Below, in pieces: positions 1-19,300 of a stretch of DNA of 64,000 bases (position 1 is its first letter; each line of letters opens with the position of its first letter). The notes under the pieces were generated by a model. It was not told the DNA's origin, did no database searches, and saw only the letters and a list, made by a program, of their open reading frames with translations. Source of the stretch: a virus. The stretch lies in IMG/VR virus record IMGVR_UViG_3300032245_000936, positions 48,658 to 112,657 of that record, one strand, 5' to 3'. The translations under genes were made by a program, and so were the position numbers.

Positions 1-308
1 GTATCAAAACGAGGCAGTAAATCGCGATAGCGTTTGATAAACAATCCGTTGGTATTGATACTAGGGCGGCAACCTTTTGCCTCCAATGCGTCTAGTATGT
101 AAACAATGTCCTCACGTTTCATTGTACCAACTTCGCCACCGCTGAGTGTTACATTATAGCCAGGTATTATTTTATCTATTTTTTCTTTAACCTGATCCAT
201 GCCAAGTTTAGGACGATTGTGTGTGTCCACACAGCAATAGTTACAATGCCATTGGCATACCCATGTAACCACAAGTTCAATTTCTTTTTCTTTTGCTTGT
301 ATTGCCAT
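1..308 (-). CDS. Radical SAM protein (partial, runs off window); not in the ORF track
   Basis: Manual translation from ATG at 308: MAIQAKEKEIELVVTWVCQWHCNYCCVDTHN...TLSGGE...SINTNG. CxxxCxxC and GGE motifs; TGATG overlap with the upstream stop. Confidence 0.9.
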   Translation of the reverse strand, partial: MAIQAKEKEIELVVTWVCQWHCNYCCVDTHNRPKLGMDQVKEKIDKIIPGYNVTLSGGEVGTMKREDIVYILDALEAKGCRPSINTNGLFIKRYRDLLPRFD

Positions 309-889
309 CAGTGCCACCTTGCCACAACTGTAACAAACTCATCCAGGCTATATGGATGAACCTTGTGCCCGTGTTGGTTGAAGAAGTCCATCATTAGATT
401 CAAACTAATCTTGCGTTGACTACGTACATCAGGCAACAACAAGAACTTGATATGAGGATACTTCTCTATCATTTTATGTATGCTTCCATCCAGGAAGTTT
501 GTATTGGTTACTACCAATGCGTAGAACACATGATCTAATTCTAAATTAGGAAACTCTATGTCGTCGGGCAGATACTCCACGCAATGATAATGTATCTTTC
601 CAAACTCATGTACCAATGGCATGTGTTGCCTGAAGAACAACCCGTTTGTCAACAGGTCAATTATACAGTTCTTGTCCTTGAGCAGTTTTATTATCAACTC
701 CAACTGCTCACGTTTCAGTAACCCAGGCTCTCCTCCGCCAAACGTGACCTCTGTGTCGGGTTCAATGGCCTTTACCCTGCGTAGTACTTCTTCAAAAGGC
801 AGCTCTGGTTGGTTGTGTATATCTGCAACACAATAGTCACAGTGCCAGTTGCACTTGTTGGTTAAAGGCAATTCAATTTCTTTTTTCAT
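308..889 (-). CDS. Short radical SAM protein
   Basis: CNWHCDYC, GGGEP, LLTNG. Likely start MKKEIEL at 889 (ATGA overlap with the upstream stop) rather than 931. Confidence 0.88.
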   Translation of the reverse strand: MKKEIELPLTNKCNWHCDYCVADIHNQPELPFEEVLRRVKAIEPDTEVTFGGGEPGLLKREQLELIIKLLKDKNCIIDLLTNGLFFRQHMPLVHEFGKIHYHCVEYLPDDIEFPNLELDHVFYALVVTNTNFLDGSIHKMIEKYPHIKFLLLPDVRSQRKISLNLMMDFFNQHGHKVHPYSLDEFVTVVARWH

Positions 890-1560
890 CTCAATGCCTT
901 TAACTTGCGGATATTGTTTACTTCCCAGCAACTGGTAATCAAATGTAGATAGCTGTCAGGTGCAATACGATCTTTATACTGATTATATACTTTGAATCCA
1001 TTGGCTCTGCTCAATCCTTTGCCAATTACATTATCTGCTCCAAATACTAAAAATCTGATATCCGGATATTGATTGATATAAAAGTCCAAACGGTGCATGG
1101 TATCATCTGTGATTACCAATTGAAAATCAATTTTGGATATATCAACGTGCTCAGGAATCCAAATGTCATCATTGTCTAAATGTTCACTACAGTGATATAA
1201 AAAACTGTCTGGGATATGGCATAGATTTTTGTGTTTTTTAAAAAATGTTCCATTGGTGTTTACATTAACAAAGCATCCTTTATTCTTTAACTCTGTTAAC
1301 ACCCATTCCATAACAGCATGATCAATGAGCCCTGGCTCGCCACCAGTTAATGCAACATCACTGTTTCCTGGTATTGCTTCAACTTTTTGTTTTATGTCAT
1401 GATAGGTTACATCAGCTCTGTTGTGTGTGTCCTCAGAGCAGTAGTCGCAGAACCAATTACACTTATAGGTTAGGTACAAGGTATAACTGTTAGCTCCATC
1501 AAGTCCTCCTTGAAAGAATTCATAGTTGTCGTGCTTTACTCTTGGCAATTGATTGCTCAT
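886..1560 (-). CDS. Short radical SAM protein
   Basis: CNWFCDYC, LTGGEP, VNTNG; paralogous to its two downstream neighbours. Confidence 0.9.
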   Translation of the reverse strand: MSNQLPRVKHDNYEFFQGGLDGANSYTLYLTYKCNWFCDYCSEDTHNRADVTYHDIKQKVEAIPGNSDVALTGGEPGLIDHAVMEWVLTELKNKGCFVNVNTNGTFFKKHKNLCHIPDSFLYHCSEHLDNDDIWIPEHVDISKIDFQLVITDDTMHRLDFYINQYPDIRFLVFGADNVIGKGLSRANGFKVYNQYKDRIAPDSYLHLITSCWEVNNIRKLKALR

Positions 1561-2609
1561 TTGTAAAACCCTTTTCTATAAAAATTTACCTGTGTGATTT
1601 TTTCACCCGGAGCCGGAGTCAGTACCACATCTTTGATCTGTTTCTCAACACCATCACAGATGTAATAATGTTTACACTCTAAGCAGTCCTTGGTTTTATA
1701 GTATGTGCGGTTGCGTTTGAATGCGGCTGCATCATACATGGCCTTGAGTGGATCAGCGCGATATGTTTCAGGATCGATGTCACCATTGTATACCGCAATA
1801 TTCCAATCATATACATCATAGATATGTTGATAATAATTGCAAACGTATTGTTCATAGCCTGTCATGAAGCAATAAGGTGTGTACCTTACGTTGATTTTTT
1901 TAACTTGATCTTTTAACAAATCAATGGCCTGATGTACATAAGGTGTAACTTCAGCGTAGTTGATAGTGTCTTGTTTGCCAGCATCGTCCCAATAGTTGAG
2001 AGTGAGAAAGTTCACTTCAAAGGGTTGTAGTTCTTGCATCAGTGCCACAAACTTTGTGGGCAAGGATTTGTAGTTCCGGTGAGTCACTGTGCAATTAACA
2101 CGAACCAAAATGCCTAACTCATGTGCATTGTGTATGGCCTGGACAATATTTTCAAAGCCCTTGCGATGACCTACTAATATGTTGTGAGACTCTTTGTCAT
2201 AACCATGTACACTAAATAGGATTTCTTCTAGTCCGTGTTCTTTTGATTTTGCTAAGAATTCTTTATTGGCAAATTTGTACCCATTGCTCAGTGTACTGAT
2301 TTTCAATCCATGCCCGCGGCAGTAGTCTAGTATATCAAACCATTGCTTGTGAATACTGCTTTCTCCACCACTAAGGTCTACTTCTTTAATTCCACAAGCA
2401 ATCAAATAATCAATGCGTTCTTTTATTTTTTCAAACTCAGTTACTTCATCAAGCTGTGTTTTGTAATAGCAGAACTCACAACGATAGTTGCAATGTGTGC
2501 CAGTGTCTAGTTTGGCACGATTGCACATAGGCTCGTTACTATCAATCTGTAACTTATTGCTCAGCTCGTTGTATAGTCTCACGTTCAATCTCTTGGTATT
2601 GTTGGTCAA
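1557..2609 (-). CDS. Radical SAM protein with C-terminal CxxCx5C cluster
   Basis: CNYRCEFC, LSGGE, LSNG, FSVHG; C-terminal CLECKHYYICDG. Start (TTG) uncertain. Confidence 0.88.
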   Translation of the reverse strand: MTNNTKRLNVRLYNELSNKLQIDSNEPMCNRAKLDTGTHCNYRCEFCYYKTQLDEVTEFEKIKERIDYLIACGIKEVDLSGGESSIHKQWFDILDYCRGHGLKISTLSNGYKFANKEFLAKSKEHGLEEILFSVHGYDKESHNILVGHRKGFENIVQAIHNAHELGILVRVNCTVTHRNYKSLPTKFVALMQELQPFEVNFLTLNYWDDAGKQDTINYAEVTPYVHQAIDLLKDQVKKINVRYTPYCFMTGYEQYVCNYYQHIYDVYDWNIAVYNGDIDPETYRADPLKAMYDAAAFKRNRTYYKTKDCLECKHYYICDGVEKQIKDVVLTPAPGEKITQVNFYRKGFYK

Positions 2610-3399
2610 TTGGCTCTGGATCAGCCTGATATTTCTTTTTACTTGCCACCATCAATTTAAATGATGACACCGATTCTTTATAACAAGTCCTACTAAAACT
2701 ACTGCAATGATTTAAACATATACTTTGGCTATCAAAGAACTTGTATCTAATAGGGTGCTCTAATGCTTCCTTTAGTGACACTGTGTTTAGATTTGCAAAG
2801 GCCAACTTATCATTATAAGGAACATTGTCTTTTACGAACTTACAAAACATCACATCACCATTGGCCAATATCTTGGGCATACTGTGAAAATGGCATTTGA
2901 GTTTAGAGTTGAATTCTTCGTTTATTTTTGTGCCGGTGTAATTGAAAACATAGTTTCGATCGCGGCGCTCTAGGTTGTAACGTATACCGGCTGCATCAAG
3001 TTCATCAATTCGACGATGCACAATATCAAATAAATTTTTATCCATGCCGGTTAGCTCTTTGAACTTTTCTGGAGTGTCACCATAATAACTGATACAGAAT
3101 TTAATATTGGTCATACCAATTTTTTTCAGCTTCTCTACATTCACTGCGGTTACATTGGTAAACACAATGGTGTATTTCATATGCGTGTTTACAAAATCAA
3201 GCATTTCATAAATGTCAGGATGCAGGAATGGTTCGCCTTTTGCAGGAATCAAATCAACTTCTGTTATGCCCATTGCCTTTGCTTCTAAAATAATTCTTTT
3301 GAATAATTCTAGATCCATATACTGCGGCTCGGTGATATCTTTGGCTTTGCAAAAATAGCATTTGAAATTGCAATACTCAATGATTTCTACCACTATCAT
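2554..3399 (-). CDS. Radical SAM protein with twitch/SPASM-like C-terminus
   Basis: CNFKCYFC, KGEPFLHP, FTN; C-terminal C...ILANGDVMFC...ICLNHC. Confidence 0.88.
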   Translation of the reverse strand: MIVVEIIEYCNFKCYFCKAKDITEPQYMDLELFKRIILEAKAMGITEVDLIPAKGEPFLHPDIYEMLDFVNTHMKYTIVFTNVTAVNVEKLKKIGMTNIKFCISYYGDTPEKFKELTGMDKNLFDIVHRRIDELDAAGIRYNLERRDRNYVFNYTGTKINEEFNSKLKCHFHSMPKILANGDVMFCKFVKDNVPYNDKLAFANLNTVSLKEALEHPIRYKFFDSQSICLNHCSSFSRTCYKESVSSFKLMVASKKKYQADPEPIDQQYQEIERETIQRAEQ

Positions 3400-4289
3400 A
3401 TTATGCCTTTAAGGATGTCCACTATCTCATCATTGGGCTTTAGATGGATGCTGTCAAACTTATAGTCAATATCCCAGCGTCTCCAATACAGTCCTAGATC
3501 TTCTGCCCAGTAATCTATATCATGATAAATTACCTCTTTGCTGTAGTATTTACATTCGGCTATGAAACGAGGCGAACAATCCCACTTTCTTTCAACTGGA
3601 GTGTACACATACGTGGTAAACTGTTCAAACAGATTGTCTACTGGTGGAAGTATAAACGTAATTCCAGTCACTGGAGTTGGTTGATTTTCTGCATTGGTAA
3701 TTGCAACAATAGGTTTATTGTATCTTGCAAAGTCTGCCCAATCTTTTATATTGCGGCAGTTTTTGGTGGCATACAGCAATATTTGATTTTTGCTTTCGCC
3801 AATGGTTTTTAGTCGACTAAAGAGTATTTTCTTTTTATAGTTGATTCCGTTGGTTTTGACAGGATCATACACACGGTCGTCTTGTAAGATGTAGACGTTG
3901 TGTTTATCATTGTCTTTGATCTCTTTGTTTCCGCAAGCAAAGAAGATGATGTTGTCAAATAACAGCGTGTACTCTTGTGCATTTACAATACCTCCGTCTG
4001 TAAATAAAATATTACGGCCACGTAACAAACTAGGGCGATTGCCGAACACAGTATGTGCGCGAATATCGGCAATTTCATGATCTGTAAAATCATACTTGTT
4101 TCTAATACTTCTCTCAACGGTTTGCCAATCAATATCTTCTCCTAAAAAAATTCCCACTTTAAAATGATCTTTGAGTACGTGATAGTAGTCAAATACTTCA
4201 AAGGTATGTCCACACACGCCGTGATTGTTGTTGCTCCAGGTATAGCTGAGCCAGAGATCGTACGAAGGATCTAATTGTATTATTTTCAT
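3396..4289 (-). CDS. Hypothetical protein, possible GT-B fold glycosyltransferase
   Basis: C-terminal DCSPRFIAECKYYSKEVIY resembles the GT-B nucleotide-sugar-binding helix motif; similar to the neighbour at 4286-5074. Confidence 0.5.
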   Translation of the reverse strand: MKIIQLDPSYDLWLSYTWSNNNHGVCGHTFEVFDYYHVLKDHFKVGIFLGEDIDWQTVERSIRNKYDFTDHEIADIRAHTVFGNRPSLLRGRNILFTDGGIVNAQEYTLLFDNIIFFACGNKEIKDNDKHNVYILQDDRVYDPVKTNGINYKKKILFSRLKTIGESKNQILLYATKNCRNIKDWADFARYNKPIVAITNAENQPTPVTGITFILPPVDNLFEQFTTYVYTPVERKWDCSPRFIAECKYYSKEVIYHDIDYWAEDLGLYWRRWDIDYKFDSIHLKPNDEIVDILKGII

Positions 4290-5074
4290 CTGAGCATTGC
4301 CTTTACCATTACATCATCTTGTGTCAGTGTGTAATTAGTCAGTCCGTTTTGTTTGATATCATTGTAGCGTAGCATGATTGAATCTACACCTGTATAGACT
4401 TCTTCTACTGTGACTTGTTTATTGTAATAAAATCCCTCAGGGATGATTCGATTGTTGCTGTCTCGTACCACATGTATATAATGCACTGCATCAATCAATT
4501 CAAACAAGTTGCCTACTCCAGTGTGTTGCTTCTTTAGTATAATTGGTCGATTGAACTGTTTCTTTAATCGTTCATATTCAAATCGAATAAACTGTGGGTC
4601 CAGACAACTCACAAACACGCCAGGTGCTGAAGTTGTTAGCTGTGGGAATATTTCAAAGTTTAATTTTAGATAGCAGAACACATCGTAGTATTGAAAATCA
4701 TAGCTTCCGTAGTAGGTTACAGATCTTTGATTGCGGTAGCGGAACCATTCGTGTTCTTCGTTGCTAAAACAATGTACTTCGTTGGTGAAAAACTCTCGGC
4801 ATTGACGAAATGTATCAACATCCAGTACCAGAGTTCTGTCTAGATCAAGTTGATAGAGTTCGGTGAGTTTGATTGGAACAATGCCGTCTGTGAAAATTTG
4901 ATATTTTTGAGAAAGTATGTTTGCGACGAGGCGAAGATCGCCTTCTGTTATGCCTATAACATAAAATTGAACATCAGTATATTTTTGTAAAAACTTAAAA
5001 TATTCAAAGCAGTAAAACAGAGTTCCGTTGATCTTGTTATGTGGTTTGTGTTTGTACACCACTCCAAGTTTCAT
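4286..5074 (-). CDS. Hypothetical protein, possible GT-B fold glycosyltransferase
   Basis: INGTLFYCFEYF N-terminus and DSNNRIIPEGFYYNKQVTVE C-terminus parallel the neighbour (VCGHTFEVFDYY; SPRFIAECKYYSKEVIY). Confidence 0.5.
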   Translation of the reverse strand: MKLGVVYKHKPHNKINGTLFYCFEYFKFLQKYTDVQFYVIGITEGDLRLVANILSQKYQIFTDGIVPIKLTELYQLDLDRTLVLDVDTFRQCREFFTNEVHCFSNEEHEWFRYRNQRSVTYYGSYDFQYYDVFCYLKLNFEIFPQLTTSAPGVFVSCLDPQFIRFEYERLKKQFNRPIILKKQHTGVGNLFELIDAVHYIHVVRDSNNRIIPEGFYYNKQVTVEEVYTGVDSIMLRYNDIKQNGLTNYTLTQDDVMVKAMLR

Positions 5075-5075
5075 A

Positions 5076-5690
5076 TTAAAATCTTGCGTAGAAGTCTTCT
5101 AAAAAGTTTTGTTCTATTGTTTTAACTTCTTCTTGTGTGTTAGACAATTTAATTGCAGTGCGGAATGCACTGAACTTTCTTTCTAGCTGTGCCACAGATT
5201 CAATTTCATCTTTGTAGTTTAGATAATCTTCTAACTTGGTAATCAGTTTCTCGTCGCCGGTTTCAAGTATTTCCAAATACTTTTCTTCACGGTTGTCATT
5301 GGTGATGAAATATCCAGCATTGGCTAGATCGTTGTTGAGCATGATAAATCCATACATGGTCAGCCCAGCAATCTTGGAAAGCTCTGGTGTAATCAACATG
5401 CGAATTTTTATCATGGCTGCATTTCTTGCTTCCTGGAGAGGGTCTGTTTCCATAAGGTCAATGACCTCAAACTCCCCGGGCAATACTTCCGTGGTTCTGA
5501 GAGTTTTACTGATATGAATAGTTTTGTTTTCAACCACTGCTTTTTTCATCATCTCAGCACTCATGTAACTGAGTTTGAGATATTTTTCTTGGTGGTCCGC
5601 CGGGGCATCTAATGTGTTGTTGACCACATTAGTTACCCGGTAGTAAGTGCCGCAGTCAATGACGTGGGCCAGATCGTAAAGCATTGTCAT
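5076..5690 (-). CDS. Hypothetical protein, possibly a fibre-assembly chaperone-like helical protein
   Basis: ORF directly downstream of the S74-containing gene. GAGGA RBS before ATG at 5690 (track start 5714 is TTG). Helical C-terminus. Function inferred from position only. Confidence 0.55.
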   Translation of the reverse strand: MTMLYDLAHVIDCGTYYRVTNVVNNTLDAPADHQEKYLKLSYMSAEMMKKAVVENKTIHISKTLRTTEVLPGEFEVIDLMETDPLQEARNAAMIKIRMLITPELSKIAGLTMYGFIMLNNDLANAGYFITNDNREEKYLEILETGDEKLITKLEDYLNYKDEIESVAQLERKFSAFRTAIKLSNTQEEVKTIEQNFLEDFYARF

Positions 5691-5716
5691 AATTGATTCC
5701 TCATTGTATACCAAAT

Positions 5717-6385
5717 TCAGATTGGTAAGAGTTTATAGTTCACCATGTAAAATCCGCGAGCATCCTTCTTTAATGCTTGTTCATGTTTGGTTCCAACTAG
5801 TTCTTGAGCAATAACGCCAACATACTCTGTGGCTTTGTCCCAGATATATGTCCAAGAATAGATATTCAGACCATTGCGTGTTTCAATGAACTTGATGTTT
5901 TCTTTGAGACGTTGATCACTGTAGTTACAACCGCAGTCGTTGTGACAACTACAAACGTTGTTACAGGAGCAGTCTGAATTACAAATACAATCTTGGCGAA
6001 TTACATCGTAACGTGCTTTGAGCTCCGTCCAATGAGTAATCTGTACCTTTGTGCCTGCGGCCAGCGAAGCCGGAACTGTGGTCAGATATGCTACCATAGT
6101 ACGAAGATTGTTGTATTGTCCTGACGTGGCTGTGGTTGCGCCCGGTGAAAATGCAGTTCCCTCATACAATGTGTATGGGCCGTAATCGCCATGAGAATCA
6201 TAACGAGCAATCTCGTCACGAATACTGCTACGTAATAAATTTATATCTGCGGCTGTTACCTTACCACCTTGAGCCCATTCATTACTCATGGTAATGGCTC
6301 TGTTAGTAGAGCAGCCAGGACGGTGATTTGAACAGGATGATGTGCCTGTTCCGTGGTCAGTGCAGTGTGAACCAGAGCATGCCAT
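5717..6385 (-). CDS. Cys-rich protein with C-terminal Peptidase S74 intramolecular chaperone domain
   Basis: N-terminal MACSGSHC...SC...GC; (CxCxxx)4 block CICNSDCSCNNVCSCHNDCGCNY followed directly by SDQRLKENI...GVIAQEL...VNY, the S74 autocleavage signature. Confidence 0.85.
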   Translation of the reverse strand: MACSGSHCTDHGTGTSSCSNHRPGCSTNRAITMSNEWAQGGKVTAADINLLRSSIRDEIARYDSHGDYGPYTLYEGTAFSPGATTATSGQYNNLRTMVAYLTTVPASLAAGTKVQITHWTELKARYDVIRQDCICNSDCSCNNVCSCHNDCGCNYSDQRLKENIKFIETRNGLNIYSWTYIWDKATEYVGVIAQELVGTKHEQALKKDARGFYMVNYKLLPI

Positions 6386-6389
6386 TTGG

Positions 6390-7565
6390 TTAAGTTCCTT
6401 CCATTTCTAATTGTTTTGCTTTTTCAGTAACAACTTGTAATTCGTTGTCAAGGTAGGATTGAACGGTTCTATCAATTTCACCAAATGCCTTAAAAAAGCC
6501 ACACATGTTGTTTACCCAACGATCAGTCCAACGATCGAAGTAATCTTCTTTTTTGCTATTGTCTAAACTGGACACTGGGCAAATCATACAAGTCGTAGCA
6601 ACACAGCCTTTGCAAATATCTGAAACTGTACGAATTGGAATGCTGTATGTTTCACTCATCTTGGCTACGTCGTCAACAAAACTGTCTTGGTCAATACTAC
6701 TGCCTCTCATGAGTTCTTTGTTTGGACTGTACAAAGATCCATGGCAAGCATAGCTTTGTCCATCAACGTCAATGGCGTGCATGTTGGCACCAGACGCACA
6801 GTGTACTTTTGTGTCGCCGCCGTCAAACCATGACATCAAATGATGATTGTGCTCACGATAGAATTTGATTTCTTCTCGCGCAACCATTAACATTTCTTTT
6901 CTAAAATCTTCAATCATCTTAGGCAAGTCGCCAGATGGAATCTCATTCACATAATCAATTGTAGGAGCATAGGTCACTGTGATATTTCTACCAATGCTGT
7001 TTAGACGTTGGTGTAAATCACGGAAGTCTAACCAAGTCTTGTAAAGACCAGTCATGCTCTTGAGAGGAATGGTGCTTTTCAATGAGATGTTAATACCTTT
7101 ACGTGCAAAGTATTCAATGTTCTCTACCACTGTGGAGCTGGTTGGTTTACCAGTGTGAGTTAAACGGAATTTGTCATTGATGTCTTTTCCGTCGTAACTG
7201 ATTTGAATCTGTAGTTTGCTAGTATCTACTGCATCAAAAATATCTTCTAGGCGCTTGCGGTTATAACCATTGGTGTAGATATGAAATTCAATCTCAGGAT
7301 ACTCATTGAATTCATTCATTACATCAATAATCATTTTACCATTTAGTGTTGGCTCACCACCCCAGAAGCTGATGTTCAAGCTGTCATATTTGTTGCGGAA
7401 CCAAGGTGACTTTCTTAGTTCGTGAATACGCTGTTTAACTAGATCTAGTTTGTCGTCTAGACGTTGTTTGTTGGTCTTCACACCCTCAAAGCAATAGGTG
7501 CAACCCAAGTTGCACAAAGCAGTGGTGGTGATTTCGATAGTAAATTGTCCTAAACGTTCATTCAT
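6390..7565 (-). CDS. Radical SAM/SPASM-domain protein (anSME/peptide-maturase-like)
   Basis: CNLGCTYC, FWGGEP, YTNG, ISYDG; SPASM-like HCASG...DVDGQSYACH...CKGC...CMIC...C. Confidence 0.9.
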   Translation of the reverse strand: MNERLGQFTIEITTTALCNLGCTYCFEGVKTNKQRLDDKLDLVKQRIHELRKSPWFRNKYDSLNISFWGGEPTLNGKMIIDVMNEFNEYPEIEFHIYTNGYNRKRLEDIFDAVDTSKLQIQISYDGKDINDKFRLTHTGKPTSSTVVENIEYFARKGINISLKSTIPLKSMTGLYKTWLDFRDLHQRLNSIGRNITVTYAPTIDYVNEIPSGDLPKMIEDFRKEMLMVAREEIKFYREHNHHLMSWFDGGDTKVHCASGANMHAIDVDGQSYACHGSLYSPNKELMRGSSIDQDSFVDDVAKMSETYSIPIRTVSDICKGCVATTCMICPVSSLDNSKKEDYFDRWTDRWVNNMCGFFKAFGEIDRTVQSYLDNELQVVTEKAKQLEMEGT

Positions 7566-7795
7566 TGTGTGTCTTTCCCCATGGTCATAATTTCATCTAA
7601 AATGCTCATCATACGATCATCTGAAACTTTTTCTTCTTCAGGTTGAATAATCAACGCCATTTCAGCTGCCATGTGTAAAAGTTTATCGGATTCGTCCTGA
7701 AATTCTTGCACATTTGACAAGTGTTTGGATGCTTCCAGTAGATGATTGCTGGCATAAAACAGCGCCTTGTTCATCTTTTTAATGCTAGTTGACAT
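7562..7795 (-). CDS. Small helical hypothetical protein between two SPASM enzymes
   Basis: ORF overlaps both neighbours (translational coupling); ATG at 7795. Confidence 0.65.
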   Translation of the reverse strand: MSTSIKKMNKALFYASNHLLEASKHLSNVQEFQDESDKLLHMAAEMALIIQPEEEKVSDDRMMSILDEIMTMGKDTQ

Positions 7796-8792
7796 TCTCA
7801 ATTTCCTCTTTAAGTTGTTGTATAAAGTACGGATTGCTACCTAGCTCTTGTGACATCCTACTTACTTGCCTGTAAGTGTATTTATATATGCTACAGAGCT
7901 CCACGATAGGACCTTTGTTTTTGATTTGCTCAAATAAACAGCCTTTTTCGCAGTAGTTTTTTACTTCGCAGGATTGACACTCGGGCATTTGTGCATATTT
8001 GGGTATTTCTGCAATCAGCTCGGGTGCTTTGGTAAAACGTGTGCAGGGCACAATCTTGTTGTCGCTGAACATGAATATGTCTGTTCCTGCGCCGCAGTTG
8101 TGTTTTTCTAATCCTTTAACTTTGTAATTTAAAAAATGGCGAAGATAAAATGTGATGAAAAACGGCATCTGCTCATGCGGATTTGCGATGTACCAATCAA
8201 ACAGTTCTTCGATACCTGCTTTGAGTTTTTCCACACTAGCAGAATCCCATACATCAACGTCACGTACCAGCGTAAGCTCTGGATTCACTCCAAAGTGCTT
8301 TTTTATAAACAAATGATTTTCCAATAGGTTATAGCAACCCTTGTAAATCATTGTGTGCATACGTAGGTTGGGTATCTGTTTGAATAGATCTGCTTTTTCT
8401 AAAAATCTATGTGAGGTTTTGCGACCGTTTAACTGTAGCCTATATTTGTCTTGCCACAGTCCGTCAAAACTCACAGATGTTTCAATTTGTTCTTTAACTA
8501 GGTACTCCAGTATTTCATCTGTTAACAACAACCCATTCGTGGGCATGAATAATTTTACATTGCCATCTTCACGTACACCATCTACTATACGCTGAATCAA
8601 ATCAAATTGCAACAGGGGCTCACCCCCAAAAAAATCAATCTTGATACGTTCAGTCGGGTGTTGTTCCCGCATCTTTCGAAACTCATCAAGATACATGTCT
8701 ACATCAATGGCTTTTTTGCTCCATTTATCCACGTCACAGTAGGTGCAATTTAGATTGCACTTTTCTGAAAGGACCACAAGCAAGGTTTTCAT
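7785..8792 (-). CDS. Radical SAM/SPASM-domain protein
   Basis: CNLNCTYC, FFGGEPLL, PTNG, VSFDG; SPASM CGAG...VPC...CQSCEVKNYCEKGC...C. Confidence 0.92.
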   Translation of the reverse strand: MKTLLVVLSEKCNLNCTYCDVDKWSKKAIDVDMYLDEFRKMREQHPTERIKIDFFGGEPLLQFDLIQRIVDGVREDGNVKLFMPTNGLLLTDEILEYLVKEQIETSVSFDGLWQDKYRLQLNGRKTSHRFLEKADLFKQIPNLRMHTMIYKGCYNLLENHLFIKKHFGVNPELTLVRDVDVWDSASVEKLKAGIEELFDWYIANPHEQMPFFITFYLRHFLNYKVKGLEKHNCGAGTDIFMFSDNKIVPCTRFTKAPELIAEIPKYAQMPECQSCEVKNYCEKGCLFEQIKNKGPIVELCSIYKYTYRQVSRMSQELGSNPYFIQQLKEEIENVN

Positions 8793-9526
8793 TTTCTATA
8801 GATCTCGTTTAATTTTAATACAGTATTTAAGAGCTCTATGTCAAACATATCTGCTAGTGCTTTTGTATCTTTAGGCAAGCACGGGCCACCAAAGCCTCGC
8901 TGGCCATCTGGGCCCGGAACTTGAAAATGATGTGTGCCCATCCATGGCTGCATTTTTAACACATCAACGATACTGTTGTAGTCAGCGCCCAGCTCATTGG
9001 CAACATCATATATGGCATTCATGTATGTTACTTTGAGTGCATAAAAACTGTTCATTGTGTATTTGGCCAATGCCGCAGTTTTTATGTCTGTGAATTTTAC
9101 TGTGCTCATGTTCACATCAGAGTATTTGCGATACAGATCTGCCACACGCTGAGTTTTGTCTGTGTCACCACCTAGTAGTACAAAAGGCGGGTTAATAAAA
9201 TCATCTGCGGCTGTTGCACGGCTTAAAAACTCGGGGTTGTAAACAATGTCGTATTGTTCTAGCACATGTGGAAGTGCTGTGCTTTTTACAACAACAATTC
9301 CTTGGTAATTGGTACTTTTAATACGTTCCAATGTTTCACGTAGTATTTGATAGTTGCTATGATCAGTAGGAGTAGGCACACATACAAAAACAGCGTCAGG
9401 ATTTTCCCCACACATATATTCTATGCTGAGATCGTTGTATGCAGGGTCAGAGAGCATCACTGCGGTTTTACTAAACCCAGTTGCCACCGCCTTGCCAACC
9501 ATTCCGTAACCAATTATTCCGATCAT
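8789..9526 (-). CDS. ugd: UDP-glucose/GDP-mannose dehydrogenase family protein (short form)
   Basis: GIIGYGMVG Rossmann motif, VCVPTP, KST, YNPEFL, AKY..N, catalytic GFGGPCLPKD; lacks the usual C-terminal domain. Confidence 0.88.
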   Translation of the reverse strand: MIGIIGYGMVGKAVATGFSKTAVMLSDPAYNDLSIEYMCGENPDAVFVCVPTPTDHSNYQILRETLERIKSTNYQGIVVVKSTALPHVLEQYDIVYNPEFLSRATAADDFINPPFVLLGGDTDKTQRVADLYRKYSDVNMSTVKFTDIKTAALAKYTMNSFYALKVTYMNAIYDVANELGADYNSIVDVLKMQPWMGTHHFQVPGPDGQRGFGGPCLPKDTKALADMFDIELLNTVLKLNEIYRK

Positions 9527-9551: not shown

Positions 9552-9581
9552 ATTGTAGCAAAACAACAACACCTGTGTCAA
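9552..9581 (-). promoter_or_regulatory. sigma70-type promoter for the ugd/radical-SAM operon, overlapped by an inverted repeat
   Basis: Minus strand TTGACA-18 bp-TACAAT with extended -10 TG; inverted repeat ACAGGTGTT (9543-9551)/AACACCTGT (9568-9576). Confidence 0.65.
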
Positions 9582-9594
9582 GTACTATTTTAGA

Positions 9595-11658
9595 TTATCG
9601 AATTGTAACAGCGGCTTCAACTAGTTCTTCGCCTGATGTTACTTTTTCTTGCAGAGTACGTCCAATTACATTAAATGCTGTGGCTTCACCGGGTTTGGCA
9701 GCACGGGCCACTCCATTTCCTGCACTTACCAAACGGCCATTGCGTTCTACTGGGCCAACCACACGCACAGGAACTCGTCCTGCTAGTGCAACTGGAAGAC
9801 CATCTGAACCTGCATTCAGCACATGTCCTGGATTGGTAGAAATTACGCCAAACACATTTTCACTTGCATCGTCGTTCTCTTGAGTAATTTCAGCTGAGCC
9901 GCCAATTCTTACTAGTGTACCTGGTGCGTAGTCTATGTCACTTGCATAACGTTCTGCCAAGTCAGCGTATCTTGCTTGAATTGACACACCGTAGATGTTG
10001 TTCCACCATGCGCCTGAGCTACCTAGGTTAACTGCGGCATTACCAGCTGGCAATGGAGCAGAAACAAATGTTGCTGTACCGCCAACTGTCAATGTGGTTA
10101 ACTGTGCTCCACTGGCATAAATTACACCAAAACGACTTGTGGATTGACCAATGTCGCCTGACAGGTTAGCACCAAAGTGTGGAAGGCTAGTAACAGTCAC
10201 CGCACCAGAGTAGATGTTGGCAAAAGTACGCAATGGAGTTCCAAGTTCGTACTGGTTATCTGTAGATGGCTTGAGCGTACCTGTTAGGTCCAATGAGCCA
10301 TCTCTGTTTAACTTGTTTGCAGTATGGTTACTGACTTCACCTTGTAGAGCATATACGTTAGAGAACATACTGCCAGCTGGACCTGGTACTGCACCAGCAC
10401 CTGGTTGTCCAAGGTTACTTAGTACGTTGGCATGAATTGCAGAAACGTTTGCCCATAAAGTCAAAAGGTTTCCTGCAAATGTATCGTTGGTTGTGAAACG
10501 TGCGTATGCGTTTGCGGTATATCCGCCTTGAGCAATCGCTAACAACGTTGGGTTATTAAAGCCCAACTGTGATTGTAACAAACGAACGTTACCATACATG
10601 GCTGTGTATGAACCAGTTGTGGTCAATACGTTAGCAACAATAGTACCAATACTGGTATTCAATGTGTTAACGTTTGATGCCAAGTAGGTTTGTAATGTGC
10701 TTGCTAGGTTGTCAACATAGTTCTTGGTTGCAACACCTAGACCAGTTTGTGGGTCGGCCAACACTGTGATCAAACCAGATGATTTGTCAACTGTTAATAC
10801 GTTAACTGTGGCACCAGCCGCGTTGTCAGGTTTGGATTGAATTACTAAACCGTTACCACGTACACGACTGAATAGGTTAACGTTTTGACCAGCGACTGTG
10901 ATTGTGAAGTCTGTCACTGTACCGCCAAGTTCTTGAATGGCCAAACCGTCTGGTGTTTGAATAACCAATTGGTTATTCAAAACTGCATTGGTCTTGGTTA
11001 AGAACTGGTTAGCTGGGACTCCGCCTAGATAAGCAGAGTTGTTGGCATTTTCATAATACAACAACGATGGAACGTTGTCAGAATTTAGGTTAAAGCCCGG
11101 CTTAACAGTTGCAAAGCCTGGCAATGTTGTTTGTGGTGTAAATGCAGAGTCTTTTGACAAGATAGCAACCAAACGGTTCTGCACATAGAACTTGACAACC
11201 ACGTGCGGAAATAGTGTGGTATCAATGATTGTGTCAGCAACCGCACCAGATGTACCAGTGGTTGTGGTAAAGCTAGGGCCAATAATAACCCAGGCTGCAC
11301 CAGAGTATACTTTTAACTGCTGATTAACTGAGTCAAACCACAAGTCACCAGCAACTGCATTGGTTGGTTGATCTGCTAGACTCTGGGCACCAGAAATTGA
11401 CTTCCACGTACCATATGTGTCGTAGACTTGTAACACTCGTGTGTCTGATTTCCACCATAATTGTCCTACTAGCGGATATAATGGTGCGCTTCTGTTAGAG
11501 AAGTTTTCTAGCAGTTTTACAAAATTCTCGTTCAGGAACGTGCCATAACCAGCATAGTTCTTTCCGATCAGTGTTAGACTGGTAGTGATGTTATTGGTCT
11601 GACCGTCTGCGACCACTGTCAACGGCGTTCCGTCTGATTTTACTATGTTATAGCTCAT
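9595..11658 (-). CDS. Tail fibre/baseplate-attached protein with C-terminal autoproteolytic chaperone-like domain
   Basis: N-terminal LIGKNYAGYG..LNENFVKLLENF and GQLWW/GDLWFD modules; C-terminal YADLAERY...GVIST.P...VALAGRVPV (Peptidase G2/IMC-like). Confidence 0.75.
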   Translation of the reverse strand: MSYNIVKSDGTPLTVVADGQTNNITTSLTLIGKNYAGYGTFLNENFVKLLENFSNRSAPLYPLVGQLWWKSDTRVLQVYDTYGTWKSISGAQSLADQPTNAVAGDLWFDSVNQQLKVYSGAAWVIIGPSFTTTTGTSGAVADTIIDTTLFPHVVVKFYVQNRLVAILSKDSAFTPQTTLPGFATVKPGFNLNSDNVPSLLYYENANNSAYLGGVPANQFLTKTNAVLNNQLVIQTPDGLAIQELGGTVTDFTITVAGQNVNLFSRVRGNGLVIQSKPDNAAGATVNVLTVDKSSGLITVLADPQTGLGVATKNYVDNLASTLQTYLASNVNTLNTSIGTIVANVLTTTGSYTAMYGNVRLLQSQLGFNNPTLLAIAQGGYTANAYARFTTNDTFAGNLLTLWANVSAIHANVLSNLGQPGAGAVPGPAGSMFSNVYALQGEVSNHTANKLNRDGSLDLTGTLKPSTDNQYELGTPLRTFANIYSGAVTVTSLPHFGANLSGDIGQSTSRFGVIYASGAQLTTLTVGGTATFVSAPLPAGNAAVNLGSSGAWWNNIYGVSIQARYADLAERYASDIDYAPGTLVRIGGSAEITQENDDASENVFGVISTNPGHVLNAGSDGLPVALAGRVPVRVVGPVERNGRLVSAGNGVARAAKPGEATAFNVIGRTLQEKVTSGEELVEAAVTIR

Positions 11659-16320: not shown

Positions 16321-19300
16321 TTATTGTCCTAAGTCCAGCCATATACTACCCTGTGGTACATGTGTGGTTGTTGCTACTCGATACACAGCAGTATTTTGGA
16401 TGCTTGCATTACCAATATTGTTGTACACAGAGTAATCATTTGAGATTGTGAGTACTGTATCAGTTTCAAACTGTTGTACTGGGCTTGCATCAGTAATTAT
16501 GCTTCCGGCCACATGCACCAAAGGAATACTTGTTCGTTGTGCTCCACGACGTATGTCTGTTAGCACCCCACGGTTAAGGTCAATTCCAAAATAGTTAATC
16601 TTTTCGCCATTGACCCAAATACTGCCTGGCTGATTGATAGCTGCCGCTGGTGCTGGCAATCTAGCAATGTCAGCTACTGAAATCTCAGTGTCTTCATAGG
16701 ATAGGTTGGCAGTCAACACTGTGGTATTTGCATCTGGCAATCTGTAATAGACCGTTGACAGTTTATAATCAGTGAAGATCTTGAAGGCTGTTACATTACC
16801 ATAGTCAATGTTGCCATTGGTTACATTTGCAGTAAACACATTCATTTGTAAACTGTCAATCACCTGACCAGGTACCAGCTCTTCAGGAGCATGACTACTA
16901 TACTTGTCAATAAATTTACCGCCGTCAACAATGATATCTTCAGGACGAATACCTAATAGGTTATCAGTGTATTCACTGCTGATAATAGTATCTAAACTCA
17001 ATGGATCAGTATTGGTTTGTAAAAACTCCTGCCCTTTTACCAAGCCGCCTGGATAACTTGCACCCGGAATCTTATCAGGAATATCTCTATACAAATGATC
17101 TAGTACGCCAGCAATGTTGTATTGGGCAGTACTCACAATTTTTGTTCCAGACTGTATACCAAACACAGTGTCAGGGGACAACACATAATCAATTTTTAGA
17201 CCGTCTGTGGTCTCAAATATCAATGTGGTTGTGTTATTACGCACATCCTGTGTTGTTGTTTTTTGTATTTTTGTACCTGTTGCATCAAAGAATGTCAATG
17301 ATGTTCCGGCCGGAATAGCAACACTGGTGTCAGTTGACGGTTTATTTGGCAGAGACAACGGCTTGTTCAACTGCAATGTTGTTTTGTTTACAACAATTGA
17401 TTCGTAGTTGATGTTGTTGTCGCGTCCAGATCCACGTGCAAACTTCCAGGTGAACTTGGCAAAACGTCCAATTCCGTTAACCGTTGCAGCAAGAGGAATA
17501 CCAGTTCCGCTGATAGACCAGTTAGCAGTTACCTTTTCGTATCCATTTACATATACCACTGAGTCGCCTTTAGCGGCTGTGCGACTCACTGTTAGAGTTT
17601 TGGTTGTTGCTGTGTCAATGTCTGTAAATGTCAATACTGTGCCTACTGGAATTTCTGCAGTAAACAAATACTCTGCAATAAAAGATCCTAGCACTGTGGT
17701 TGTAATATTTGCAGAAGCAAAACTAATTGTGATGTTCCAACTGCCAGCAATTAACTCAACGTTTGTAATAATGGAATCAGTTGGTAACCCAGCACCGTTG
17801 AGAGTCATACCTCTAATAGGTGCGCCAATTACATCAGTTACTGGTATAGAAATTATCAGCGAAGTTAATCCAGTACCACCGGTCCAGTGTGCAGATGAAT
17901 TTCTAGTGTACGCATACCTATTAGGATTTATATTGCCTAGCTCAATGTATACTTCGTCATTGTATCCTGGGTAGCCCCAGATCACAGTAGATTTATTACC
18001 TACTACAATAAACTTTTCGCCGTCCCAGCTAATGTCAGTGAAATCGTACTTGCGTACATTTTCTGCGCTCAGCGGAAGAACAAAGTTATCAGAATCAAAT
18101 TCACGGAAGTTTTTAAACACATTGATACCGTAGTTCATCACAACCTTACCAATGGTATCTGCACCTGTGTCTGCATTGCCTAGTTGAACCTGTAGCGGAC
18201 TATCTAGTTTGTTCCAGATCAAAGTGCCACCGGATCCAATTGCAATAATCCACTGTCCTACATCATCACTGATCGCAATGGCATTGATTTGCTCTCCACT
18301 ATAACCATCGCTGTCGCCAGCAACAGACTTAGGCACATTCATTGGAATCCATGGGTAGTTAAAATCAGTGCCTTTGCCGCTATCATAGTTATAGCTTAGT
18401 TTGTATCCTTGTTGTAGATCATCAAGTCTGTTATAACTGGTGATGTACATGTTTCCATTTATGCCGCCAATTACCACAAAACCAACTTGCATTGGTTTCC
18501 CAAACCCATTTAGTGTAAAACTACCAGAACCTTCAAGATTTGCGTTATAGTATGCAAAATGTACCATTTGTGCCGGACGTGTTGTACCCACTGTGCCAGC
18601 TGCCGCAATCGCAGTATTTTCCGTAAAGCCCAACTGTATCACAGTGGTGCCTGGTGTTGTTGAACTATCAACGTTGATCACGCCGTGATTTGTTGGCACG
18701 TACGGACTGATCATTGTCATACCAAATTCAATAGTACCAGAAATATCCGCAGTTGGAATTCTTACAATCAACGTGCTACCAGTCACTGCTGCCCAGGTTG
18801 CTGATGCGCGAAGTGTTTTAGCGCGAATAAACAAAGACAAATCGCCAAAACTTCTAGAGTCCACTGCTAAGAAATTAGCCGGAGTATTGTATACCTTAGG
18901 CTGTGCTTTGGCTGCGTACCAAGTGTTTTCAAACGGCGCACTGGCATTAGTATCTGTTGGGTTCAACAGAATAGTATCACTGTTACCCACAGTTAAAATA
19001 TAACTGCCTTGTGTGCTAGTAAATGCTGTGACGCCAGTTAAGTCAACTGCTTGTGCGGCTTCGTTCAGTACCAAACCATTCACAGCATCTAGCGAAGGAC
19101 TGTATCTAAATGTTATAATTTGATCAATGTTCCAATTAACAGCATCCAAGCTGGTTAGAACATATCCACGGTTACCAATAGCCACCCATGTTGTGCCGTT
19201 ATAATACACCACGTCTCGCAAGTTCACTGCTTGATCATTCAATGGCACGTTGGTCCAGTTAACACCGTCTTGACTGTAGCTTAATAGTCCTCGCTGACCA

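What the first reader, a model, noticed from the sequence alone, without database searches (positions are those of the whole stretch)
1..9526. Phage operon with at least 7 radical-SAM enzymes, GT-like proteins and Ugd around one Cys-rich protein: candidate virion-protein maturation system
Seen: twelve co-oriented ORFs, mostly joined by ATGA/TGATG overlaps, directly downstream of the tail-fibre genes. Seven carry CxxxCxxC and two have SPASM-type Cys arrays. The only obvious substrate-like gene is 5717-6385. Known: SPASM rSAM enzymes install thioether and other crosslinks on Cys-rich ribosomal peptides (sactipeptides, ranthipeptides, QhpD). Inference: this is a RiPP-like pathway repurposed to crosslink, metallate and/or glycosylate a virion fibre-tip protein.
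Basis: partly seen in the sequence, partly recalled or inferred. Interest (0 to 1): 0.9.

Follow-up and report, generated by a model that had tools for sequence, protein, structure and literature searches.

The report
Radical-SAM maturation module for phage fibre
A large uncultured T4-like phage encodes a small fibre-like virion protein that ends in a strictly conserved cysteine array, next to two peptide-crosslinking-type radical-SAM enzymes, and the same pairing recurs in many environmental phages and in Campylobacter phages, so phages probably use antibiotic-peptide-style chemistry to mature a tail-fibre tip.

Summary
The window holds 13 co-oriented ORFs after two tail-fibre genes, seven of them radical-SAM (rSAM). 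The operon runs past the window edge to ten rSAM genes plus sugar enzymes, an amidinotransferase-like protein and IscA.

The core is a truncated UGDH, SPASM rSAM "J", a 79-aa protein, SPASM rSAM "I", then a 222-aa protein. That protein carries an invariant array, (C-x-C-N-x-x)x4, directly before an S74 self-cleaving chaperone. After it come a conserved unknown protein, two GT-B-fold paralogs and rSAM "G".

I and J score best against peptide and protein thioether maturases (PapB, QhpD, CcpM, SCIFF/CteB).

Array and rSAMs co-occur. 47 of 50 close rSAM-J loci have an array, and the other three are truncated or broken. 31 of 35 array-first loci have I/J-like rSAMs. S74 fibres without an array have none.

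In relatives without S74, the protein stops exactly at the array.

Campylobacter phages CP220 and IBB_35 carry a related array protein that was detected in virions by MS.

Best reading (about 0.55): a RiPP-like rSAM crosslinking system for a virion fibre tip, probably coupled to glycosylation. The chemistry is untested. First readers of overlapping windows of this same genome noted it too, which is not independent support.

The parts
9595..11658 (-). Tail-fibre gene (687 aa) directly upstream of the module. Its C-terminal ~130 aa recur upstream of the module in most related loci.
   Evidence: PHROG tail-fibre hits. A weak PF11962 match at E 0.005, below the cut-off. TF687 matches in related loci.
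9552..9581 (-). Sigma-70-like promoter match (TTGACA-18-TACAAT, 11 of 12, TG extended) just upstream of the first module gene.
   Evidence: Consensus scan only. Not evidence of function.
8789..9526 (-). Truncated UDP-glucose-dehydrogenase-like protein (245 aa). It has the NAD and central domains and the catalytic Cys motif, but no UDP-binding C-terminal domain.
   Evidence: PF00984 and PF03721 hits. Alignment to PDB UGDHs stops near residue 298 of 450. 48-67% identical across related loci.
7785..8792 (-). rSAM J (335 aa): SPASM-type radical SAM enzyme with no N-terminal RRE. It has CxxxCxxC plus 7 invariant C-terminal Cys, including Cx2Cx5Cx3C.
   Evidence: PF04055. Best NCBIfam hits are PapB 5e-29, HxsB, QhpD, YhhB and CcpM. 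Best PDB hit is 5wgg/5why, which I recognise as the SCIFF maturase CteB. Invariant Cys seen.
7562..7801 (-). 79-aa acidic protein without Cys, always found between rSAM J and rSAM I in class-A loci. Possible accessory subunit; function unknown.
   Evidence: Conserved at 33-59% identity in nine class-A loci; a tenth, longer L070 protein aligns only weakly at 18%. No Pfam family.
6390..7565 (-). rSAM I (391 aa): SPASM-type radical SAM enzyme immediately upstream of the array protein. It has CxxxCxxC plus 7 invariant C-terminal Cys.
   Evidence: PF04055. NCBIfam hits are PapB 3e-25, QhpD, CcpM, anSME and the CXXX-repeat maturase, aligned over nearly the full length. PDB hits are a ChlB rSAM domain and anSME. 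Invariant Cys seen.
5717..6385 (-). Cys-array fibre-like protein (222 aa). It has a conserved Cys/His N-terminus, a variable middle, a C-terminal Cys array and an S74 intramolecular chaperone.
   Evidence: PF13884. 120 of 120 database homologs keep the array. A profile search finds 644 clusters at 50% identity.
5927..5989 (-). The array itself, residues 133-153: C-I-C-N-S-D / C-S-C-N-N-V / C-S-C-H-N-D / C-G-C, followed by N-Y-S. It is the predicted mature C-terminus after S74 cleavage.
   Evidence: Invariant columns. Relatives without S74 stop at the same point.
5720..5920 (-). S74 intramolecular chaperone / self-cleavage domain, with invariant Ser156 and Lys161.
   Evidence: PF13884 over residues 156-196. 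Invariant S156, D157, R159, L160 and K161.
5076..5714 (-). Conserved 212-aa protein that always follows the array protein. The model shows an N-terminal beta-sheet and long C-terminal helices. Function unknown, possibly a fibre assembly factor.
   Evidence: Synteny. AF2 pLDDT 84. Only weak fold matches to uncharacterised phage proteins and, at low probability, to DUF4376 and tail-fibre-assembly entries. The CP220 homolog gp015 sits next to the baseplate hub gene.
4286..5074 (-). GT-B-like paralog of the next gene (262 aa).
   Evidence: hhalign probability 97.3%, E 2e-11. ESM Atlas lead to GT families, score 0.89.
3396..4289 (-). GT-B-fold glycosyltransferase-like protein (297 aa).
   Evidence: AF2 pLDDT 89.8, pTM 0.89. 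All top Foldseek hits are GT-B enzymes. VIA Z 15.5, rmsd 3.5 A, 257 residues aligned to PimA.
2554..3399 (-). rSAM H (281 aa) with a near-threshold SPASM match.
   Evidence: PF04055, and PF13186 at 21.1 bits against a cut-off of 21.5.
1557..2609 (-). rSAM G (350 aa), the most conserved rSAM of the module. It is 48% identical to the rSAM of the Campylobacter phage CP220 group.
   Evidence: PF04055 at 70.6 bits. phrog_27238 at 1.5e-98. tblastn against phages. NCBIfam best hits are viperin, MoaA, HxsC and NirJ, all far below cut-offs. PDB best hits are a viperin-like enzyme and BlsE.
886..1560 (-). rSAM F (224 aa), a short rSAM with no auxiliary-cluster region.
   Evidence: PF04055. Only the N-terminal half aligns to HxsC, QueE and NrdG-activase models.
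308..931 (-). rSAM E (207 aa), a short rSAM and paralog of D and F.
   Evidence: PF04055; NCBIfam.
1..317 (-). rSAM D, N-terminal 105 codons. The gene (207 aa) runs off the window's left edge, and the operon continues with rSAM C, B and A and sugar-type enzymes.
   Evidence: L001 14352-14975.

Best explanation
This is a conserved phage module for post-translational maturation of a small, trimeric, fibre-like virion protein.

The 222-aa protein is made with a C-terminal S74 intramolecular chaperone. That chaperone cleaves itself off after Ser156. The mature C-terminus is then an invariant 8-Cys array, (C-x-C-N-x-x)x4, ending ...C-G-C-N-Y-S.

Two compact PapB-like SPASM radical-SAM enzymes (J and I) are encoded directly upstream with a 79-aa accessory protein. 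They act on this array. The most likely chemistry is thioether crosslinks from Cys sulfur to carbons of the conserved neighbouring Asn, Asp or other residues, as in ranthipeptides, sactipeptides and QhpC. The product would be a redox-insensitive, rigid fibre tip.

The other strictly co-conserved genes probably add or prepare a second modification of the same protein, most likely a sugar. These are the truncated UGDH, the two GT-B-fold paralogs, rSAM G and the 212-aa protein. The phage IscA would help load the many Fe-S enzymes.

What is shown: gene content, family resemblance, motif invariance, co-occurrence, and virion presence of a related array protein.

What is inferred: that I and J modify the array, the thioether chemistry, the trimeric fibre-tip location, and the glycosylation.
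For: 1. Family resemblance. rSAM I and J have CxxxCxxC plus seven invariant SPASM-type Cys. Their best NCBIfam hits are all peptide or protein maturases: PapB 3e-25 and 5e-29, QhpD, CcpM, SCIFF, CXXX-repeat and anSME. Best PDB hits are 5wgg (which I recognise as CteB) and anSME.

2. Motif invariance. The array is invariant in 120 of 120 homologs while the middle of the protein is variable.

3. Co-occurrence from the enzyme side. 63 of 80 rSAM-J-related viral loci have a same-strand Cys-array ORF. Among the 50 closest, 47 do, and the other three are cut or broken. Controls gave 5 such ORFs in 768 kb of strand-bases, and one of those is a real array.

4. Co-occurrence from the array side. Every class-A array locus has J and I directly upstream. 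31 of 35 class-B array loci have I/J-like rSAMs within 9 kb. S74 fibres without an array have none.

5. Same end point. Relatives lacking S74 end exactly at ...C-N-Y(-S/T).

6. Enzymes track the array class. Class-B loci keep the UGDH-like protein at 57-66% and rSAM G at 44-56% identity, but I and J at only 24-30%. Distant class-A loci keep I and J at 44-54%.

7. Enzyme number tracks Cys per repeat. The mode is 2 upstream rSAMs for arrays with 2 Cys per repeat and 3 for arrays with 3 Cys per repeat.

8. Virion presence. CP220 gp140 and IBB_35 gene 3-9 carry a class-B array. Gene 3-9 was detected in purified virions by MS/MS (PMC3322345 Table S2).

9. Possible acceptors. The positions after C-x-C are almost always Asn or Asp. 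PapB links Cys to Asp/Glu (PMC12373016).

10. GT-B fold of 3396-4289.
Against: - No chemistry has been observed.
- No RRE or leader-like recognition element was detected, and the substrate would be a 222-aa folded protein rather than a peptide.
- All NCBIfam scores are far below the family cut-offs (about 90-100 bits against 340 for PapB).
- Pfam's SPASM model does not reach E 0.01 on I or J.
- rSAM G, D, E and F resemble nucleotide and cofactor-type rSAMs as much as peptide ones.
- The module sits in a larger sugar/small-molecule-type operon, so genetic linkage to a fibre gene could be positional.
- A CxC array in a trimer could simply bind metal or form disulfides.
- In CP220 the genes are dispersed.
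- One array locus (L163) has no rSAM within 9 kb.
- MS coverage of IBB_35 gene 3-9 was only 2.6%.
Confidence: 0.55

Rival explanations
1. The array is a metal-binding or disulfide-locked trimer core, analogous to the HxH iron sites of the T4 gp37 needle. It needs no enzyme. The rSAM, GT and UGDH genes make or tailor a sugar or small molecule, for example a glycan placed on the virion or on the host envelope, and are merely linked to the fibre genes.
For: - CxC repeats with a fixed period suit metal or disulfide ladders (sequence).
- rSAM G and D-F score against viperin, MoaA, QueE and NrdG-type models, with BlsE also among G's hits.
- The operon carries UGDH-like, GT-B, DegT, epimerase, PIG-L, deacetylase and amidinotransferase-like genes.
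- CP220 keeps most of these genes dispersed.
Against: - I and J are specifically of the peptide/protein-maturase SPASM type.
- They diverge with the array class while UGDH and rSAM G stay conserved.
- rSAM number follows Cys per repeat.
- S74 fibres without arrays never have them.
- More distant relatives sit next to other Cys-repeat proteins or to a small Cys peptide.
Confidence: 0.2
2. The whole cluster is an auxiliary metabolic or host-takeover island. It would remodel host surface polysaccharide or lipid, or produce a secondary metabolite, during infection. The Cys protein would be an unrelated receptor-binding protein.
For: - A sigma-70-like promoter match lies upstream of the module.
- Desaturase-like, AspH-like, PIG-L, deacetylase and APS-kinase-like genes lie downstream.
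- The 2010 CP220 paper proposed a metabolic role (PMC2853527).
Against: - Core order and co-occurrence with the array protein are conserved across deep divergence, whereas the downstream sugar and lipid genes vary.
- The module always sits among fibre and baseplate genes.
Confidence: 0.12
3. The rSAM enzymes serve DNA or nucleotide hypermodification.
For: Phage rSAMs such as QueE act in 7-deazaguanine pathways, and CP220-group phages have fully modified G (bioRxiv 10.1101/2023.04.13.536721).
Against: - The same contig has separate FolE and QueD genes about 30-35 kb away. An earlier, only partly checked note places DpdA and QueE there too.
- None of the ten rSAMs reaches a QueE cut-off.
- The module is embedded in fibre genes.
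Confidence: 0.03
4. The array protein is not structural. It would be a released RiPP-like toxin or effector that the phage matures and exports.
For: - The SPASM maturases and Cys-rich substrate resemble bacteriocin systems.
- Erwinia phage Caitlin has a 68-aa Cys peptide next to two rSAMs.
Against: - An S74 chaperone is typical of trimeric fibres and spikes.
- There is no transporter, leader protease or immunity gene.
- The IBB_35 ortholog was found in virions.
- Arrays sit directly after giant fibre genes.
Confidence: 0.05

Closest known systems
PapB/PapA ranthipeptide system (NF047865). Also the NxxC-type ranthipeptides, cited from my own knowledge.
   Same: A compact SPASM rSAM without an N-terminal RRE. 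It is the best profile hit for both I and J, over almost the full length. The substrate is a repeat of Cys followed by Asp/Glu (PMC12373016), and here Cys is followed by Asn or Asp.
   Different: Scores of 89-101 bits against a 340-bit cut-off, so not an equivalog. The substrate here is a 222-aa virion protein with an S74 chaperone, not a small secreted peptide. Two enzymes plus a 79-aa protein are involved. The context is a phage tail-fibre operon.
QhpD/QhpC (quinohemoprotein amine dehydrogenase maturation, TIGR03906) and the anaerobic sulfatase maturase
   Same: SPASM rSAMs that modify Cys in a protein rather than a short peptide. Both are among the top hits.
   Different: There is no quinone or haem partner here, and no C/S-x-P-x-R sulfatase motif. 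The scores are far below the cut-offs.
SCIFF/CteB, CcpM, the CXXX-repeat (TIGR04115) and Cys-every-fifth rSAM maturase systems
   Same: rSAM/SPASM enzymes paired with Cys-repeat targets. 5wgg, which I recognise as CteB, is the best solved-structure match for J. More distant phage relatives of J sit next to CxxxC-repeat proteins.
   Different: Those enzymes carry an N-terminal RRE of about 80-100 residues that I and J lack (alignment offsets). Their targets are peptides of 40-70 aa from bacteria.
Endosialidase-type S74 intramolecular chaperone domains of phage fibres and spikes (PF13884)
   Same: The domain is present above the cut-off, with an invariant Ser-x4-Lys pair at the expected cleavage site.
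   Different: Ordinary S74 fibres have no Cys array and no rSAM neighbours. Here some relatives replace S74 with a stop codon or a short stub.
Radical-SAM gene sets of the Campylobacter phages CP220, CPt10 and IBB_35 (Firehammervirus)
   Same: Homologs of J, I, G, H, A/B/C, the UGDH-like protein, hyp212b, hyp297, GT288, the amidinotransferase-like protein and the epimerase. A class-B array protein, gp140 / gene 3-9. 11-12 rSAM genes of unexplained function (PMC2853527).
   Different: The genes are dispersed there rather than in one operon. The array is (C-T-C-D/N-C-N-Y)n, internal to a 534-aa protein with no S74.
T4 gp37 needle with HxH iron sites (from my own knowledge, not tested here)
   Same: A short periodic two-residue ligand motif at the distal end of a trimeric fibre.
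   Different: The residues are Cys, not His. No rSAM enzymes accompany gp37. Metal binding here is only a rival idea.

Membership tests
Radical SAM superfamily (PF04055) | CxxxCxxC cluster motif and a profile match above the gathering score | tested here: met
   Six window ORFs score 33-71 bits against a cut-off of 29.5. The seventh, cut by the window edge, scores 28.5. Ten such genes lie on the contig.
SPASM subgroup (PF13186 / TIGR04085-type) for rSAM I and J | A C-terminal 7-Cys motif (Cx9-15Gx4C ... Cx2Cx5Cx3C ... C) binding two auxiliary clusters | tested here: inconclusive
   Seven invariant C-terminal Cys are present in both. J has the exact Cx2Cx5Cx3C pattern and I has Cx2Cx4Cx2C. PF13186 gave no hit at E 0.01 for I or J, and only rSAM H scored, at 21.1 against 21.5 bits. 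The PapB-model alignments do run through this region.
PapB-family ranthipeptide maturase (NF047865, equivalog) | Whole-protein score above 340 bits | tested here: not met
   89.1 bits for I and 101.4 bits for J. These are the closest models, but I and J are not members.
RiPP pathway in the strict sense | A short precursor with leader and core, a leader-recognition element (RRE), and a leader protease or exporter | tested here: not met
   The precursor is a 222-aa protein with an S74 domain. I and J start directly with the rSAM motif, so they have no RRE. The 79-aa protein has no family and is not shown to be an RRE. No protease or transporter is present in the operon.
Thioether (sacti- or ranthi-) crosslinked product | A Cys S-C bond to an acceptor residue, seen as -2 Da per link and loss of free thiol | not testable with these tools
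   Needs mass spectrometry of the co-expressed or virion protein.
Peptidase_S74 intramolecular chaperone (PF13884) | Profile match above the cut-off and a conserved Ser/Lys pair at the cleavage site | tested here: met
   30 bits against a cut-off of 22. S156 and K161 are invariant in 30 sequences. Cleavage itself was not tested.
UDP-glucose 6-dehydrogenase | Three domains: NAD-binding (PF03721), central (PF00984) with the catalytic Cys, and UDP-binding C-terminal (PF03720) | tested here: not met
   The first two domains and the GFGGPCLPKD motif are present. The protein ends at residue 245, where the UDP-binding domain would begin.
GT-B glycosyltransferases (for 3396-4289 and its paralog 4286-5074) | A two-Rossmann-domain GT-B fold, a nucleotide-sugar binding site, and a sequence family match | tested here: inconclusive
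   The fold is matched: Z 15.5, rmsd 3.5 A, 257 residues aligned to PimA, and all top hits are GT-B. There is no Pfam or NCBIfam sequence match. Donor-binding residues were not examined.
   None of the ten rSAMs reaches any of these cut-offs. For rSAM G and D-F these models are nevertheless among the best weak hits.

The most novel reading that the evidence does not exclude
Many large phages, including the Campylobacter Firehammerviruses, build a chemically hardened fibre tip. Several radical-SAM enzymes, one per Cys position of a repeat, weave thioether links through a C-terminal Cys array of a virion protein. GT-B enzymes, a truncated UGDH and further rSAMs then decorate it with an unusual sugar. 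This would be the first RiPP-type radical maturation of a virus structural protein. It would also explain the unexplained 10-12 rSAM genes in these phages.
Probability: 0.35. Interest if true: 0.9.

Novelty: new variant of a known kind. Interest (0 to 1): 0.8.

Why it matters
Radical-SAM/SPASM thioether chemistry is known from small bacterial peptides and a few enzymes. I found no report of it on a virus particle in the paper library that can be searched here.

The system is widespread. The array-protein family has 644 clusters at 50% identity.

It gives a concrete, testable function for the puzzling 11-12 rSAM genes of the Campylobacter phages considered for biocontrol (PMC2853527).

If the reading is right, it defines a new way to stabilise or specialise receptor-binding tips. 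It would also supply a set of protein-acting thioether ligases with defined repeat substrates, which could be useful for protein engineering.

Tried and rejected
- megablast of the region against cultured phages found no match.
- A DNA pattern for CxCxxxCxC in CP220 found nothing. This first looked like 'homologs without a Cys partner'. It was a false negative, because CP220's array is the period-7 class.
- Complex prediction of rSAM I with array residues 105-170, plus SAM and three 4Fe-4S clusters, gave no verdict (score 0.02). It counts neither for nor against.
The neighbourhoods of the 120 database homologs therefore could not be read, and IMG/VR loci were used instead.
- The search for related loci with the mixed-class alignment A8 failed for lack of a conserved stretch. 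A class-B alignment was used instead.
- hhalign of the 79-aa protein family against the 124-130-aa acidic proteins of class-B loci found no homology.
- Fold search of the 212-aa protein gave no convincing match in BFVD. The wide PDB search was not finished when last polled and was not collected again.
- Pfam on contig 19-35 kb looked for the deazaguanine genes in the wrong place. FolE and QueD were then located at 12.9 and 16.6 kb.
- The T4 late-promoter motif TATAAATA is not enriched, and no convincing terminators were found.
- DNA hypermodification and released-toxin readings were considered and ranked low; see the rival explanations.

Full report
**Where the window lies.** The window is the last 64 kb of a 112,657-bp IMG/VR virus record. 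The record is a linear fragment, and CheckV puts it at about 32% complete. The gene content is T4-like: late sigma factor, gp46/47-like nuclease, baseplate hub and wedge, portal and major capsid protein. The capsid protein is 66-68% identical to those of jumbo phages such as Vibrio phage 2.275.O and Pseudomonas phage PA5oct. The region has no nucleotide match among cultured phages.

**Checking the observation.** Thirteen minus-strand ORFs fill window 1-9526. They lie directly downstream of two tail-fibre genes and are joined by tiny gaps or 4-nt overlaps.
- Seven ORFs carry CxxxCxxC and match PF04055.
- ORF 8789-9526 is UGDH-like. It stops where the UDP-binding domain should begin, although the catalytic GFGGPCLPKD motif is kept.
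- ORF 5717-6385 has an S74 chaperone domain above Pfam's cut-off.
- The operon does not end at the window edge. On the contig it continues with the rest of rSAM D and three more rSAMs (C, B, A).
- Beyond those lie a DegT-like fragment, a GT-like protein, two desaturase-like proteins and an AspH-like oxygenase.
- Further on are an amidinotransferase-like protein, an epimerase, a PIG-L deacetylase, a polysaccharide deacetylase, IscA and an APS-kinase-like protein.
- The contig therefore holds ten rSAM genes.

**The Cys-rich protein.** Residues 133-153 read C-I-C-N-S-D / C-S-C-N-N-V / C-S-C-H-N-D / C-G-C. They are followed by N-Y-S and then D-x-R-L-K.
- Ser156 and Lys161 are invariant. They have the spacing of the Ser/Lys pair at which S74 chaperones cleave themselves; the spacing rule comes from my own knowledge of endosialidase-type domains.
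- All 120 homologs returned from the 5.8-billion-protein collection keep the eight Cys in register. The middle of the protein varies and carries indels.
- A profile of the mature part finds 644 clusters at 50% identity, 313 of them at E ≤ 1e-10.
- There are two main array classes. Class A is (C-x-C-N-x-x)x4. Class B is (C-x-C-[ND]-C-[ND]-Y)n.
- Each class comes in three C-terminal forms: a full S74 domain, a short 'S-D-x-R-L-K-x-x-I-x-Y stop' stub, or a stop codon right after ...C-N-Y(-S/T).
- Evolution has therefore reached the same mature end in two ways, by self-cleavage and by a stop codon. That argues that the free C-terminal array is the functional element.

**The enzymes beside it.**
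- rSAM J (7785-8792) and rSAM I (6390-7565) each keep the rSAM motif and seven further invariant Cys in a SPASM-like layout.
- Their best NCBIfam matches are peptide or protein maturases throughout: PapB, HxsB, QhpD, YhhB, CcpM, the SCIFF maturase, the CXXX-repeat maturase and anSME.
- J's best solved relative is 5wgg/5why, which I recognise as CteB. I's best solved relatives are a ChlB rSAM domain and anSME.
- All scores are far below the equivalog cut-offs, so these enzymes are not members of any named family.
- The alignments begin at the very N-terminus of I and J but at residue 80-105 of the RRE-bearing families. I and J therefore lack an RRE, as the PapB model also does.
- The other rSAMs are less informative. 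G resembles viperin, MoaA, HxsC and BlsE. D/E/F align only over the N-terminal half. A/B/C best match a tungsten-enzyme maturase model.

**Co-occurrence, searched from both sides.**
- Starting from the class-A array protein, every viral contig with the array has J, the small protein and I directly upstream. S74 fibres without the array have no rSAM.
- Starting from rSAM J, 63 of 80 loci have a same-strand Cys-array ORF. Among the 50 closest, 47 do. The other three are cut by a contig end or have a broken ORF.
- Control DNA gave 5 such ORFs in 768 kb of strand-bases, and one of those is a genuine array.
- Starting from the class-B array, 31 of 35 loci have I/J-like rSAMs within 9 kb.
- Of the four class-B exceptions, L162 is cut at the contig start just upstream of the array. 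L140 and L141 have about 9 kb of rSAM-free sequence upstream, and their contig ends about 1 kb downstream of the array. Only L163 has no rSAM in an intact ±9 kb.
- More distant J relatives sit next to other Cys-repeat proteins, with CxxxC, CQxCQ or CHSN repeats. In Erwinia phage Caitlin they sit next to a 68-aa peptide ending in CGGSCSWTCSGGC.

**Two further patterns point to an enzyme-substrate relation.**
- In class-B loci the UGDH-like protein (57-66% identity) and rSAM G (44-56%) stay well conserved relative to the window, but I and J drop to 24-30%. Distant class-A loci keep I and J at 44-54% with UGDH and G near 48-49%.
- Class-A arrays, with two Cys per repeat, are usually preceded by two rSAMs. 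Class-B arrays, with three Cys per repeat, are usually preceded by three, sometimes four.
- These are correlations among related sequences, not independent events.

**Link to cultured phages.**
- Campylobacter phage CP220 has homologs of J, I, G, H, A/B/C, the UGDH-like protein, the 212-aa protein, the GT-B protein, GT288, the amidinotransferase-like protein and the epimerase. They are dispersed in its genome.
- Its authors counted 11-12 rSAM genes and could only guess at a metabolic role (PMC2853527).
- My first pattern search suggested CP220 had no array. The broader scan then found gp140, a 534-aa 'hypothetical protein' whose annotated 21-bp repeats encode (C-T-C-D/N-C-N-Y)x7. It lies 2.2 kb upstream of the rSAM-I homolog.
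- The IBB_35 ortholog, gene 3-9 (60,318 Da, 'no homologs'), has the same array. It was detected in purified virions by ESI-MS/MS at 2.6% coverage (PMC3322345 Table S2).
- This is the only experimental evidence that an array protein is a virion component.

**The rest of the core.**
- ORF 3396-4289 folds confidently (pLDDT 89.8) as a GT-B glycosyltransferase. The best match is PimA at Z 15.5, and every top hit is GT-B.
- ORF 4286-5074 is its distant paralog.
- The 212-aa protein that always follows the array protein has no clear fold relative.
- These genes, the truncated UGDH and rSAM G travel with the array in both classes. I therefore infer a second, sugar-type modification of the same protein. 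This is inference only.

**Rivals.**
- A metal- or disulfide-stabilised tip, with the enzymes making a sugar or small molecule, remains possible at about 0.2.
- A host-envelope or metabolic island is rated at about 0.12.
- DNA hypermodification is unlikely. FolE and QueD lie 30-35 kb away on the same contig, and no rSAM reaches a QueE cut-off.

**Literature and earlier notes.** I found no paper describing rSAM maturation of a phage structural protein in the searchable library. First readers of overlapping windows of this same genome noted the same stretch. That is not independent support.

**Verdict.** The most likely mechanism is RiPP-like radical thioether crosslinking of a virion fibre tip, at a confidence of about 0.55. 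Novelty: a new variant of a known kind. Interest: 0.8.

Noticed in passing
window 16321-35001 (-): A single 6,226-aa ORF lies between the baseplate wedge gene and the fibre genes. Presumably a giant fibre or structural protein.
   Followed up: no
contig G000:C1:12898-13431 and 16644-17102 (outside the window): FolE (PF01227, 137 bits) and QueD/PTPS (PF01242, 57 bits).
   Followed up: partly
L134 4939-5145 (Erwinia phage vB_EamM_Caitlin gp174) with gp172/gp171 at 6064-8302: A 68-aa peptide ending in ...CGGSCSWTCSGGCSHGAGNR lies directly upstream of two rSAM genes, one of them SPASM-like, in a cultured jumbo phage. It looks like a classic small RiPP precursor.
   Followed up: partly
L094 10577-11089 and 11089-11388; many database proteins such as P0124 and P0145: These array proteins end in a short stub (S-D-x-R-L-K-x-x-I-x-Y, then stop). 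In L094 the rest of the S74 domain is a separate downstream ORF. This could be a split chaperone, a frameshift or recoding.
   Followed up: no
L083 10696-13260; L084 9501-11558: Three to four tandem paralogous class-B array proteins, most with S74 domains. Their middles differ but their arrays are identical, as expected for alternative receptor-binding tips.
   Followed up: no
L163 8647-9405: A 252-aa protein with 54 Cys, a very long class-B array, lies in a block of large structural genes. No rSAM lies within 9 kb.
   Followed up: partly
L001 8142-10197 (contig 42141-44196): Two fatty-acid-desaturase-like membrane proteins (PF00487) and an Asp/Asn beta-hydroxylase-like oxygenase (PF05118) interrupt the minus-strand operon. 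Their role is unknown. AspH-type enzymes hydroxylate Asp/Asn in Cys-rich domains.
   Followed up: no
L001 4959-5777 and 7468-8145: Two paralogous proteins of unknown family share a G-M-P-K-F-V-x-E-T-x-H-F motif. They flank the amidinotransferase-like gene.
   Followed up: no
L001 1794-2120: A phage-encoded IscA/HesB-type Fe-S carrier (PF01521, 75.6 bits) lies at the end of the operon. A related gene also appears in class-B loci L076 and L136. It fits the need to supply clusters to ten rSAM enzymes.
   Followed up: no
window 9552-9581 (-): A near-consensus sigma-70-type promoter with an extended -10 element lies between the fibre gene and the first module gene. It hints that the module may be expressed before the late structural genes.
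   Followed up: no
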